A DNA stretch of 64,000 bases from IMG/VR virus record IMGVR_UViG_3300026549_000037, positions 96,001 to 160,000 of that record; one strand, written 5' to 3'. A program made the position numbers and the translations under genes. Position 1 is the stretch's first letter, and each line of letters opens with the position of its first letter. Source of the DNA: a virus. Its lineage: Duplodnaviria; Caudoviricetes. Positions 3,664 through 3,793 of the stretch are shown piece after piece. The notes under the pieces are model-generated. The model saw only the letters and a program-made list of their open reading frames with translations. It was not told the DNA's origin and ran no database searches.

Positions 3664-3793
3664 TCGACACTAACAGCAACAAAATTTAATACTGGCAAGG
3701 GGCCTGTGTGTTGTAGGTTCGAATCCTGCTGTCCGCACCAATATGCGGACATAGCTCAACGGGTAGAGCAACAGAATGTATAAAATGTGTCGA
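3664..3793 (+). ncRNA. CGAC-stem/CAGCAA RNA copy 3 with circularly permuted tRNA module (YrlA-like topology)
   Basis: TCGACAC/GTGTCGA stem enclosing T-arm, acceptor hairpin TGTCCGC-ACCAATAT-GCGGACA, then D-arm. Confidence 0.8.

What the first reader, a model, noticed from the sequence alone, without database searches (positions are those of the whole stretch)
3664..3793. Circularly permuted tRNA module (T arm, capped acceptor, D arm) inside a CAGCAA RNA
Seen: a tRNA 3' half (CCTGT, variable loop, GTAGG-TTCGAAT-CCTGC, TGTCCGC-ACCA; 3703-3740) precedes the matching 5' half (GCGGACA-TA-GCTC-AACGGGTA-GAGC-A-ACAGA; 3745-3775). The acceptor strands are perfectly complementary and ACAG/CTGT rebuilds the anticodon stem, which continues into the CGAC stem instead of an anticodon loop. 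Established: bacterial YrlA Y RNAs use this T-acceptor-D order. It retains ACCA, so RNase P or 3' trimming could open it into a chargeable two-piece RNA (inference).
Basis: partly seen in the sequence, partly recalled or inferred. Interest (0 to 1): 0.8.

Follow-up and report, generated by a model that had tools for sequence, protein, structure and literature searches.

The report
Permuted tRNA mimic on phage Y-like RNA
A large uncultured phage makes a small RNA shaped like a tRNA whose two halves are in swapped order, mounted on a conserved "handle" shared with other small RNAs; the handle probably docks on a phage protein shaped like the RNA-surveillance protein Ro60, so this is a new branch of the known Ro60/Y-RNA particle.

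Summary
Window 3664-3794 (+) holds a T arm, a 7-bp acceptor stem capped by ACCA+ATAT, a D arm and a 4-bp anticodon-type stem, all closed by a 7-bp terminal helix followed by CAGCAA.

- **Not a deletion remnant.** Nine distinct orthologues keep the fold with compensatory changes. Across ten family members 16 of 19 pairs change on both sides.
- **Resemblance to YrlA.** The Rfam YrlA model matches weakly (34.9 bits; cut-off 69).
- **Paralogues.** The RNA is one of eight RNAs in this phage sharing the helix+CAGCAA handle. The eighth, minimal copy lies in the 5' UTR of a DUF2828-vWA gene (14733-16442).
- **Partner protein.** The predicted fold of that gene's product matches only Ro60 over both domains (Z 12-17).
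- **Linkage.** In 61 loci around homologous genes, handles pile up on the gene's strand just upstream.
- **Two topologies.** In many of these phages the same RNA exists un-permuted, as a tRNA body with the handle replacing the anticodon loop. A permuted copy of one such unit aligns collinearly with the target (z 10.4).

Best reading: a YrlA-architecture partner RNA of a divergent Ro60-like protein, probably opened by RNase P. It fails strict YrlA membership. Charging is unsupported. The scan has met this handle/DUF2828 system before on other DNA.

The parts
3664..3670 (+). Handle helix, 5' strand (TCGACAC)
   Evidence: Pairs with 3787-3793. Position 6 covaries with its partner as A-T, T-A, C-G and G-C among seven paralogues. 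In other phages the helix sequence is entirely different but still complementary.
3671..3680 (+). Conserved single-stranded handle motif TAACAGCAAC (CAGCAA at 3674-3679)
   Evidence: Invariant in nine orthologues and present in all eight paralogues. It is the signature that clusters upstream of DUF2828 genes in 61 loci. The same words appear in the published pattern for Dictyostelium Class I RNAs (PMC5054030).
3681..3703 (+). 5' linker, with a possible short helix ATAC 3689-3692 pairing with GTAT 3778-3781
   Evidence: Nearly invariant among orthologues. The ATAC to ATGC change in L122 and L129 keeps a G-U pair. The helix is inferred, not demonstrated.
3704..3712 (+). Anticodon-type stem 3' strand CTGT (3704-3707) and variable loop GTGTT (3708-3712)
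   Evidence: Pairs with ACAG at 3771-3774. All 4 pairs change on both sides across the family, though only 72.5% of cells pair.
3713..3729 (+). T arm (GTAGG, loop TTCGAAT, CCTGC)
   Evidence: 100% of cells pair and all 5 pairs change on both sides. L004 has AGGAG with CTCCT.
3730..3751 (+). Capped acceptor: 3' strand 3730-3736, ACCA 3737-3740, ATAT 3741-3744, 5' strand 3745-3751. Predicted RNase P site between 3744 and 3745.
   Evidence: Strands are perfectly complementary. Compensatory A7-T66 to G-C and G1-C72 to A-T changes occur among orthologues while the loop stays ACCAATAT in 8 of 9. ATAT|G is the leader of 7 of 11 tRNAs. The cleavage site is inferred.
3752..3770 (+). TA spacer, D arm (GCTC, loop AACGGGTA, GAGC) and A26
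   Evidence: The GG of the D loop is kept in all orthologues.
3771..3786 (+). Anticodon-type stem 5' strand ACAG (3771-3774) and A-rich 3' linker
   Evidence: The linker is nearly invariant among orthologues.
3787..3794 (+). Handle helix 3' strand GTGTCGA plus conserved G
286..6168 (+). Span holding the paralogous handle RNAs of the tRNA cluster. Copies inside the window begin at 286, 1993, 3664 (the target), 5417, 5872 and 6038. One more lies just outside the window at genome position 95084.
   Evidence: The copy at genome 95084 also holds a T arm, capped acceptor and D arm. The copy at 1993 holds a T arm and a longer capped stem.
14691..14729 (+). Minimal eighth handle copy (CGACCG 14691-14696 with CGGTCG 14724-14729; CAGCAA 14700-14705) in the 5' UTR of the Ro60-like gene. 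It lies downstream of TTGACA 14645-14650 and TATAAT 14668-14673.
   Evidence: An equivalent minimal handle directly precedes the homologous gene in many phages, with unrelated helix sequences.
14733..16442 (+). Ro60-like protein gene (DUF2828 + DUF7788/vWA, 569 aa); proposed partner of the handle
   Evidence: Pfam 7.6e-28 and 7.4e-39. The 13 best Foldseek matches are all Ro60/TROVE chains. VIA-align gives Z 17.0 to 12.0 over both domains, with 358-396 residues aligned.

Best explanation
The target is a small non-coding RNA of about 131 nt, transcribed with the phage's tRNA cluster. It has two modules.

**Module 1, the handle.** A terminal 7-bp helix formed by the RNA's two ends, followed immediately by single-stranded UAACAGCAAC. 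Eight RNAs of this phage share it. It is most likely the docking site of the phage's own Ro60-like ring protein (DUF2828 plus vWA), encoded 10.9 kb downstream on the same strand. That gene carries a minimal handle in its own 5' UTR next to the ribosome-binding site, which suggests the protein also represses its own translation.

**Module 2, the cargo.** A complete tRNA body minus the anticodon loop, in circularly permuted order (T arm, capped acceptor, D arm), with every elbow and core nucleotide kept. It should fold into the tRNA L-shape. This is the architecture of the bacterial and phage Y RNA YrlA.

The RNA would therefore act as an adaptor that puts a tRNA-shaped surface on the Ro60-like ring. 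That surface could recruit or gate a tRNA-recognising partner such as RNase P, a CCA-adding or modifying enzyme, an exonuclease like PNPase, or a host tRNA-targeting nuclease.

The permuted gene most likely arose from a tandem repeat of the un-permuted form found in related phages, which is a tRNA body with the handle in place of the anticodon loop. The acceptor cap, ACCA plus the ATAT leader, is the old inter-unit junction. RNase P probably still cuts it between 3744 and 3745, giving a two-piece RNA with a free CCA end.

**Shown:** the fold, its conservation and covariation, the paralogue family, the linkage of handle and gene, the Ro60 fold of the protein, and the existence of both topologies.
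**Inferred:** protein binding, autoregulation, RNase P cleavage, and the identity of the partner recruited.
For: **Fold and covariation**
-.
- Nine distinct orthologues carry compensatory changes in the T and acceptor stems.

**Paralogue family**
- Eight handle copies, all on one strand, all within 20 kb upstream of the DUF2828 gene and nowhere else in 170 kb.
- The helix covaries with all four base pairs among paralogues.

**The handle is transcribed RNA, not a promoter**
- The eighth copy lies downstream of a perfect TTGACA-17-TATAAT promoter, inside the 5' UTR.

**Protein**
- DUF2828 + vWA.
- The model's best 13 Foldseek matches are all Ro60/TROVE.
- VIA-align Z is 17.0 and 16.3 to the two top entries, a 'Trove domain' crystal structure (9kop) and Thermus phage phiLo Ro60 (9l5y), and 12-13.6 to Xenopus and human Ro60 and Rsr, spanning both domains. 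All other matches cover the vWA domain only.

**Linkage in 61 loci around homologues**
- 116 open and 38 hairpin handles fall in the 2 kb just upstream on the gene's strand.
- Other bins hold 0-16; the opposite strand holds 0-9.

**Both topologies**
- 116 un-permuted tRNA bodies carry CAGCAA in the anticodon arm. All are on the gene's strand; 72 are distinct; they occur in 53 loci.
- 11 distinct permuted modules lie inside handles, in 15 loci.
- L080:9530-9646, permuted in silico, aligns collinearly with the target at z 10.4. In native order z is -1.1.

**RNase P step**
- ATAT|G is the leader of 7 of the phage's 11 tRNAs.
- The ACCAATAT loop is kept in 8 of 9 orthologues while the closing pairs covary.
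- N-CCA occurs in 5 of 9 independent permuted types.
- M. smegmatis YrlA is a precedent (PMC4201824).
- Phage Ro60 with upstream Y-like RNAs and host PNPase is documented for Thermus phage phiLo (PMC12135203).
Against: - No experiment shows that the protein binds the handle.
- The handle motif (CAGCAA) is not the known Ro60 site (GNCGAA, GGUCCGA or CGAA).
- The protein is linked to Ro60 by predicted fold only. The model has mean pLDDT 69. The TROVE Pfam model and a profile search of PDB sequences find nothing.
- The target lies 10.9 kb from the gene, outside the 4-kb rule used for YrlA.
- One 28.7-kb phage record rated complete (G005, locus L025) has a perfect handle copy but no DUF2828 gene.
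- ACCA is lost in the L004/L126 lineage and absent from the paralogue at genome 95084, so a free CCA end cannot be essential for every member.
- These phages have no RtcB, unlike the bacterial rsr-yrlA-rtcBA setting.
Confidence: 0.7

Rival explanations
1. A tRNA-shaped element that works without the Ro60-like protein. It could be a decoy or sponge for host proteins that recognise the tRNA elbow and acceptor (defence nucleases, nucleotidyltransferase toxins). It could instead be an RNase P entry and processing platform for the polycistronic tRNA transcript, with the handle serving only as a stabilising or processing helix.
For: - The element sits inside the tRNA cluster, 24 nt upstream of tRNA-Met and just after tRNA-Leu.
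- It keeps the tRNA leader and tail.
- A handle copy exists in a phage record without the DUF2828 gene.
Against: - The handle's strong positional and strand linkage to the DUF2828 gene across 61 loci is left unexplained.
- So is the minimal handle in that gene's own 5' UTR.
- A mere stabilising helix would not need an invariant single-stranded CAGCAA.
Confidence: 0.17
2. A decaying remnant of two tandem copies of one tRNA gene that lost their outer halves, with no function of its own.
For: The cap is exactly a 3' tail plus a 5' leader. That is what such a deletion would leave behind.
Against: - Nine distinct orthologues keep every helix, with compensatory double changes.
- The linkers are more conserved than the stems.
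- Independent permuted modules with unrelated acceptor sequences occur in at least four phage lineages, always inside a handle.
- No relative has intact tandem tRNAs at this site.
Confidence: 0.03
3. A true permuted tRNA gene of the Cyanidioschyzon merolae type. The transcript would be circularised and then opened at the acceptor to give a decoding tRNA.
For: The 3' half precedes the 5' half, and re-threading gives a cloverleaf. CCA and the leader sit at the junction.
Against: - There is no anticodon loop. The 4-bp stem runs into conserved linkers and the handle.
- The un-permuted relatives also carry the handle where the anticodon loop should be, so the family is non-decoding.
- I saw no bulge-helix-bulge motif by eye. 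No RtcB is present.
Confidence: 0.02
4. A DNA-level cassette. TCGACA would serve as a -35 box with a TATAAT-like -10 box 15-17 bp downstream, making each element a promoter, with the inverted repeat as a DNA feature.
For: - TCGACA matches TTGACA in 5 of 6 positions.
- Some copies have TATAAT 15-17 nt later.
- Some copies follow terminator-like hairpins.
Against: - Spacing to the -10-like box varies from 10 to 20 nt, and the box is absent in several copies. Among orthologues it reads TTTTAATAC, TTTTAATGC or TTATAATAC.
- In other phages the helix has sequences unlike any -35 box.
- The copy at 14691 lies downstream of a true consensus promoter.
- Compensatory changes between the two ends require pairing.
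Confidence: 0.03

Closest known systems
YrlA-type Y RNAs of bacteria and mycobacteriophages (Rfam RF02553; Chen et al. 2014, PMC4201824), partners of Ro60/Rsr
   Same: - The connectivity is the same: a helix formed by the 5' and 3' ends, a short stem in the position of the anticodon stem, then variable region, T arm, capped acceptor-like stem-loop and D arm, with tRNA tertiary nucleotides kept.
- Several paralogous RNAs share the protein-binding module and differ in cargo, as YrlA and YrlB do.
- The RNA is encoded on the strand of a Ro60-fold gene.
- A 7-bp acceptor is also found in M. smegmatis YrlA, which RNase P cleaves.
   Different: - It scores 34.9 bits against a gathering cut-off of 69.
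- It lacks the GNCGAAN0-1G motif and has helix + NNACAGCAA instead.
- The partner candidate is DUF2828 + vWA, which the TROVE Pfam model does not detect.
- It lies 10.9 kb from the gene, not within 4 kb, and is embedded in a tRNA cluster.
- The acceptor cap keeps an encoded ACCA plus a tRNA leader.
- No RtcB or RtcA is nearby.
Thermus phage phiLo Ro60 with Yrl1/Yrl2 (PMC12135203)
   Same: A phage-encoded Ro60-fold ring with Y-like RNA genes upstream on the same strand. Together with 9kop it is the best structural match of the protein model (Z 16.3).
   Different: The phiLo RNAs use a CGAA motif in an internal bulge, and no tRNA module is reported for them. phiLo Ro60 was identified as a Ro60 homologue in UniProt, whereas the protein here is linked to Ro60 by predicted fold only.
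I found them in neither Rfam nor the papers searched.
   Same: They have the same parts and homologous linkers. One of them, permuted in silico, aligns collinearly with the target.
   Different: The topology differs. Their ends are at the acceptor, and the handle helix is closed by a loop where the anticodon loop would be. They occur as tandem arrays directly upstream of the gene.
Class I RNAs of dictyostelid social amoebae (Aspegren 2004; Kjellin 2021, PMC7919456; search pattern in PMC5054030)
   Same: A short covarying helix joins the 5' and 3' ends. Next to its 5' strand sits a conserved single-stranded motif, published as CTTACAGCAA. That is the same word as in the phage handles: copies here read CTTACAGCAA and the target reads CTAACAGCAA.
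   Different: They are eukaryotic, 42-65 nt long, have no tRNA cargo and have their own promoter element. The only reported direct binder is an RRM protein. Whether the resemblance reflects a shared DUF2828-type partner was not tested here.
Permuted tRNA genes of Cyanidioschyzon merolae
   Same: The 3' half is encoded upstream of the 5' half, with the tail and leader at the junction.
   Different: Those mature into decoding tRNAs through a circular intermediate. This RNA has no anticodon loop.

Membership tests
YrlA (Rfam RF02553) | T arm, acceptor-like stem-loop and D arm in that order, enclosed by a helix of the 5' and 3' ends | tested here: met
YrlA (Rfam RF02553) | Score at or above Rfam's gathering cut-off (69 bits) | tested here: not met
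   34.9 bits for the window; 28-36 bits in four relatives.
YrlA (Rfam RF02553) | GNCGAAN0-1G motif near the 5' end (proposed Rsr contact; PMC4201824) | tested here: not met
   The 5' end reads UUCGACAC followed by UAACAGCAAC. Only the CGA core is shared, and in other phages the helix has no CGA at all.
YrlA (Rfam RF02553) | Encoded within about 4 kb of a TROVE-domain Ro60 orthologue, on the same strand | tested here: not met
   No PF05731 match in this record or in three complete relatives. A Ro60-fold DUF2828-vWA gene lies on the same strand 10.9 kb downstream.
YrlA (Rfam RF02553) | Bound by Ro60/Rsr; carries tRNA-type modifications | not testable with these tools
   Needs immunoprecipitation and modification mapping.
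CAGCAA-handle RNAs linked to DUF2828 Ro60-like genes (operational family of this scan, not published as far as I could find) | A 5-7 bp helix whose 5' strand is followed after 1-4 nt by single-stranded CAGCAA | tested here: met
CAGCAA-handle RNAs linked to DUF2828 Ro60-like genes (operational family of this scan, not published as far as I could find) | The helix covaries while CAGCAA stays fixed | tested here: met
   All four pair types appear at one position among paralogues, and a second covarying position appears in the copy at 14691. Helices are unrelated in other phages.
CAGCAA-handle RNAs linked to DUF2828 Ro60-like genes (operational family of this scan, not published as far as I could find) | Same strand as, and clustered near, a DUF2828-vWA gene | tested here: met
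   All eight copies lie 0-20 kb upstream on the gene's strand. Enrichment across 61 loci. One exception: G005.
Permuted tRNA gene (Cyanidioschyzon type) | The halves rejoin to give a tRNA with a 7-nt anticodon loop | tested here: not met
   The stem continues into conserved linkers and the handle. Un-permuted relatives also lack an anticodon loop.
Tandem tRNA junction (the known false positive of YrlA searches; PMC4201824) | The T arm and D arm belong to two neighbouring complete tRNAs whose acceptor strands do not pair with each other | tested here: not met
   ARAGORN finds no tRNA at 3640-3815. The two acceptor strands are perfectly complementary. By contrast, 51 of the 150 best hits of my own model elsewhere were such junctions.
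Dictyostelid Class I RNAs | Short helix of the 5' and 3' ends plus the motif CTTACAGCAA next to the 5' strand | tested here: met
   The published pattern in PMC5054030 was compared. This is resemblance in pattern only.
Dictyostelid Class I RNAs | 42-65 nt, dictyostelid genome, upstream DUSE promoter element | tested here: not met
   This is a 131-nt RNA in a phage record with bacterial sigma-70-type promoters nearby.

The most novel reading that the evidence does not exclude
The capped acceptor is a conserved RNase P site, so the mature form would be a two-piece tRNA-shaped RNA with a free 3' CCA end, held on a Ro60-like ring by the handle. The permuted and un-permuted genes would then be two routes to the same active species. 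Its CCA end would be what is used: threaded into the ring, extended, or even aminoacylated. That would make this a split, protein-docked tRNA mimic without precedent among Y RNAs.
Probability: 0.2. Interest if true: 0.85.

Novelty: new variant of a known kind. Interest (0 to 1): 0.64.

Why it matters
Y RNAs with tRNA-like domains are known only next to recognisable Ro60 genes, and what the tRNA-like domain does is still open. Here the same architecture turns up with a Ro60-shaped protein that sequence models do not recognise as Ro60. It uses a different docking motif, and it belongs to a family spread over many uncultured phages.

The family offers a natural experiment. The same RNA exists in two circular permutations, one with its ends at the handle and one with its ends at the acceptor. 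Comparing the two should show which features the particle needs: a free CCA end, a closed handle, or the tRNA elbow. Because the docking motif is identical to the conserved motif of the unexplained Class I RNAs of social amoebae, a binding test could also shed light on those.

Tried and rejected
- **Promoter reading of the handle's 5' strand.** I considered it seriously (TCGACA against TTGACA; TATAAT in some copies; terminator-like hairpins upstream). I rejected it because spacing is inconsistent, the -10-like box varies among orthologues, helices in other phages look nothing like a -35 box, and one copy sits downstream of a real consensus promoter.
- **Known self-cleaving ribozymes, riboswitches or other Rfam families for the handle.** Nothing at E up to 1 over the 11-kb cluster apart from tRNA, YrlA (weak), RAGATH-33 and a group I intron.
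- **TROVE Pfam model.** No match in the own record or in four relatives.
- **RtcB.** None.
- **Sequence searches of the protein against PDB.** Neither the single sequence nor the profile returned any Ro60. The link is by fold only.
- **BLAST of the locus against GenBank phages.** Only tRNA hits.
- **The exact 17-nt handle word in viral contigs.** Most hits outside the clade were chance matches in coding DNA.
- **Zinc-ribbon ORFs following two handle copies (387-689, 5531-5824).** I considered them as the RNA-binding partner and dropped the idea. They are not conserved next to handle copies in L025 or L028.
- **My own covariance model R1.** It also picks up ordinary tRNA-tRNA junctions and junctions of un-permuted arrays, so its raw count (173 hits, all on one strand) overstates the permuted class.
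- **The tRNA look-alikes at 2786-3147.** They carry a different arm without CAGCAA.
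Full report
**What is there**

The window is positions 96001-160000 of a 169.6-kb IMG/VR virus record. The record is 35% G+C and about 78% complete; complete relatives are about 215 kb. Positions 1-6500 of the window, plus about 2 kb before it, form a tRNA cluster on the + strand.

A 7-bp helix (3664-3670 with 3787-3793) encloses, in order:
- the single-stranded word UAACAGCAAC;
- a linker;
- the 3' strand of a 4-bp anticodon-type stem;
- a 5-nt variable loop;
- a T arm with a canonical T loop;
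- a 7-bp acceptor stem capped by the eight bases ACCA+ATAT;
- the UA spacer;
- a D arm whose loop holds GG;
- A26;
- the 5' strand of the anticodon-type stem;
- an A-rich linker.

The nucleotides that build the tRNA elbow and core are all in place: U8-A14, A15-U48, G18/G19 with U55/C56, U54-A58, G46 and G53-C61.

**Is it more than chance?**

- The Rfam YrlA model was built from unrelated sequences. It matches 3692-3796 end to end at 34.9 bits, with E 6.6e-6 in 601 nt and E 1.2e-4 in 11 kb. This is below the family's gathering score of 69.
- The thermodynamic fold forms the closing, T, acceptor and D helices, z -3.2.
- ARAGORN finds nothing in the native order. When the two halves are re-threaded around an artificial 7-nt loop it draws a canonical 76-nt cloverleaf.

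**Conservation**

The neighbouring 170-aa ORF led to four related phages, and all keep the RNA at the same place. A metagenome scan raised this to nine distinct orthologous sequences.

- The handle and both linkers are almost invariant.
- The stems change in a compensated way. The T stem GTAGG/CCTGC becomes AGGAG/CTCCT in L004. Acceptor pair 7-66 switches from A-T to G-C in five sequences. Pair 1-72 switches from G-C to A-T in L123.
- The cap stays ACCAATAT in eight of nine. The L004/L126 lineage has one more base pair and ACAATAT.

On a MAFFT alignment of ten family members from five phage lineages, which was not fitted to any model, the stated structure pairs 89.5% of cells. Shuffles give 63% and slid partners give 40-48%. 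Sixteen of 19 pairs change on both sides. The T stem pairs in 100% of cells and the acceptor stem in 96.7%.

**The context that explains it**

The 5' word TCGAC-N-C-T-N-ACAGCAA, with a matching G-N'-GTCGAG 61-130 nt downstream, occurs seven times in the tRNA cluster, always on the + strand. The copies begin at genome 95084 and at window 286, 1993, 3664, 5417, 5872 and 6038. It occurs nowhere else in the record.

N and N' covary through all four Watson-Crick pairs. The cargo differs between copies:
- the copy at genome 95084 holds a second T arm, capped acceptor and D arm module;
- the copy at 1993 holds a T arm and a longer capped stem;
- three copies are only 61-73 nt long.

I first weighed a promoter reading, because TCGACA resembles TTGACA and some copies have TATAAT 15-17 nt later.

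The eighth copy (14691-14729) has helix CGACCG/CGGTCG, a second compensated position, and ACUCAGCAA. It lies downstream of a perfect TTGACA-17-TATAAT promoter (14645-14673), inside the 5' UTR, and abuts the ribosome-binding site of ORF 14733-16442. So the handle is transcribed RNA and not a promoter. Its place in that leader is the classic arrangement for autoregulation by an RNA-binding protein; that last step is inference.

**The protein**

ORF 14733-16442 (569 aa) matches DUF2828 (7.6e-28) and DUF7788, a vWA-type domain (7.4e-39). The TROVE model and sequence searches of the PDB do not see it.

An AlphaFold2 model built from 44 homologues has mean pLDDT 69. Its 13 best Foldseek matches are all Ro60/TROVE chains, at E 1.4e-7 to 2.2e-5 over 519-616 alignment columns. 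VIA-align gives:
- Z 17.0 (384 residues aligned, rmsd 6.2) to the entry 9kop, titled 'Trove domain';
- Z 16.3 to Thermus phage phiLo Ro60 (9l5y);
- Z 12.0-13.6 to Xenopus and human Ro60 and Deinococcus Rsr, always spanning both domains.

The next matches cover the vWA domain only. The protein is therefore Ro60-shaped by prediction. Homology is not shown at the sequence level.

**Linkage across phages**

Eighty viral loci around homologues of the protein (41-94% identity) were fetched. In the 61 loci with full flanks:
- the helix+CAGCAA signature occurs 116 times in the open form and 38 times in the hairpin form within the 2 kb just upstream of the gene, on its strand;
- every other 2-kb bin holds 0-16;
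- the opposite strand holds 0-9.

Helix sequences are unrelated between lineages. A minimal handle directly precedes the gene in many of them.

**Two topologies of one RNA**

In L080, L078, L069, L089 and many others, the RNAs upstream of the gene are tandem arrays of tRNA bodies in normal order. Each unit reads: acceptor 5' strand, D arm, stem, A-rich linker, a short hairpin, NNACAGCAA, linker, stem, T arm, acceptor 3' strand, tail.

A descriptor search found 116 such units. All are on the gene's strand, 72 are distinct, and they occur in 53 of 84 loci. Encoded N-CCA tails are present in 14 of the 72.

The same helix and CAGCAA strand are present in both forms. The far end of the helix is closed by a loop in these RNAs and is formed by the RNA's termini in the target. 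When L080:9530-9646 is circularly permuted in silico, it aligns collinearly with the target, linkers included, at z 10.4 against shuffles. In native order it does not align (z -1.1).

Permuted modules inside handles were found as 11 distinct acceptor variants, 9 independent module types once the target's own orthologues are merged. They lie in 15 loci from at least four lineages.

The simplest origin of the target is a tandem duplication of an un-permuted unit followed by loss of the outer halves. That explains why its acceptor cap is a tRNA tail (ACCA) joined to the ATAT leader, which precedes 7 of this phage's 11 tRNAs; three more have AAAT.

**How it most likely works**

- *Shown:* fold, covariation, paralogy, linkage to the gene, Ro60-like fold, both topologies.
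- *Inferred by analogy with Ro60/Y RNA biology* (PMC4201824; PMC12135203): the handle docks on the Ro60-like ring, and the tRNA-shaped module presents a tRNA surface to a second factor.
- *Inferred from the leader and tail, and from the M. smegmatis YrlA precedent* (a 7-bp acceptor, cut by RNase P in vitro, cleaved and CCA-tailed in vivo): RNase P cuts between 3744 and 3745, and trimming exposes CCA.

N-CCA sits at exactly this position in 5 of 9 independent permuted types. That is far more than chance would give. It could reflect selection or recent origin from arrays. Aminoacylation is pure speculation, and loss of CCA in one lineage argues that it is not essential.

**Comparison with what is known**

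The target works like YrlA and has its connectivity. It fails three of YrlA's defining features that I could test: the gathering score, the GNCGAA motif, and a TROVE gene within 4 kb. I therefore do not file it as YrlA. I file it as a YrlA-architecture member of a distinct handle family tied to DUF2828-type Ro60-like proteins.

I found that family in neither Rfam nor the papers searched. Earlier agents of this scan reported the same system in many other genomes. One of them also noted two circular permutations, which I had reached independently.

Two earlier notes pointed to the Class I RNAs of social amoebae. I checked the literature. The published search pattern is a 6-nt helix strand followed by CTTACAGCAA, then the complementary strand up to 120 nt later (PMC5054030). 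The stem covaries while the 11-nt motif is fixed (PMC7919456). The word is the same as in these phage handles. Whether the partner is the same was not tested.

**Open points**

- One record rated complete (G005, 28.7 kb) has a perfect handle copy between two terminators but no DUF2828 gene.
- The target is farther from the gene than is usual in the family.
- The protein model is of middling confidence.

**Verdict**

The feature is a new variant of a known kind, the Ro60/Y-RNA particle.

Noticed in passing
window 6205-6500: A tRNA with a long variable arm and anticodon CUA, which would read TAG, is split after position 33 by a small group I intron (Rfam Intron_gpI 26.6 bits, E 0.0018). Relative L002:7721-7808 has the same tRNA uninterrupted. 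Earlier notes say the phage reads TAG as glutamine in late genes; I did not test that.
   Followed up: partly
window 1068-1216 (L017:5068-5216); L001:930-1042, L002:642-754, L003:38-150: RAGATH-33 RNA. It scores 119.4 bits here, just under the 120.4 cut-off because of an insertion of about 36 nt, and 137-138 bits in relatives. RAGATH motifs were originally defined by association with self-cleaving ribozymes (own knowledge). No hammerhead or twister was detected in this window or in the 11-kb cluster.
   Followed up: no
L001:7002-7132, L003:6724-6915, L003:2227-2379, L004:589-707, L004:5754-5948: tRNA genes of sister phages carry insertions of 45-120 nt at the anticodon loop. The insertions themselves contain short hairpins, some of them T-arm-like, and are too small for group I introns. 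How they are removed, if they are, is unknown.
   Followed up: no
window 2786-2905 and 3025-3147: Two tRNA-shaped RNAs whose anticodon loop is replaced by a shared structured arm of about 55 nt without CAGCAA.
   Followed up: partly
L025:3362-3429 (28.7-kb record G005) and L028:2839-2903: A perfect handle copy, with a 7-bp helix, the CTTACAGCAA motif and 64-67 nt in length, sits between two terminator-like hairpins in small phage records from gut-type metagenomes. These records show no DUF2828 gene. It could be a satellite or a free-rider on a co-infecting phage's protein.
   Followed up: partly
L017 (genome 92001-103000): 1196, 3234, 4919, 5016, 5393, 8829, 9054: Seven near-perfect extended sigma-70 promoters (TTGACA, 17 nt, TG-n-TATAAT or TATACT), all on the + strand of the tRNA cluster. 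The host polymerase therefore probably drives this cluster from many start points.
   Followed up: no
window 3964-4476: A 170-aa ORF directly downstream of tRNA-Met is conserved at 82-97% identity in relatives and has no Pfam match. Its N-terminus, EIERKWLL, recalls the ExExK signature of CYTH triphosphate-tunnel enzymes. That is from my own knowledge and was not tested.
   Followed up: no
window 3633-3660: A terminator-like hairpin with an interrupted T run lies directly after tRNA-Leu and 4 nt before the target's handle. It is conserved in L001 and L002 but not in L003 or L004. It leaves open whether the target is made by read-through or from its own start.
   Followed up: no
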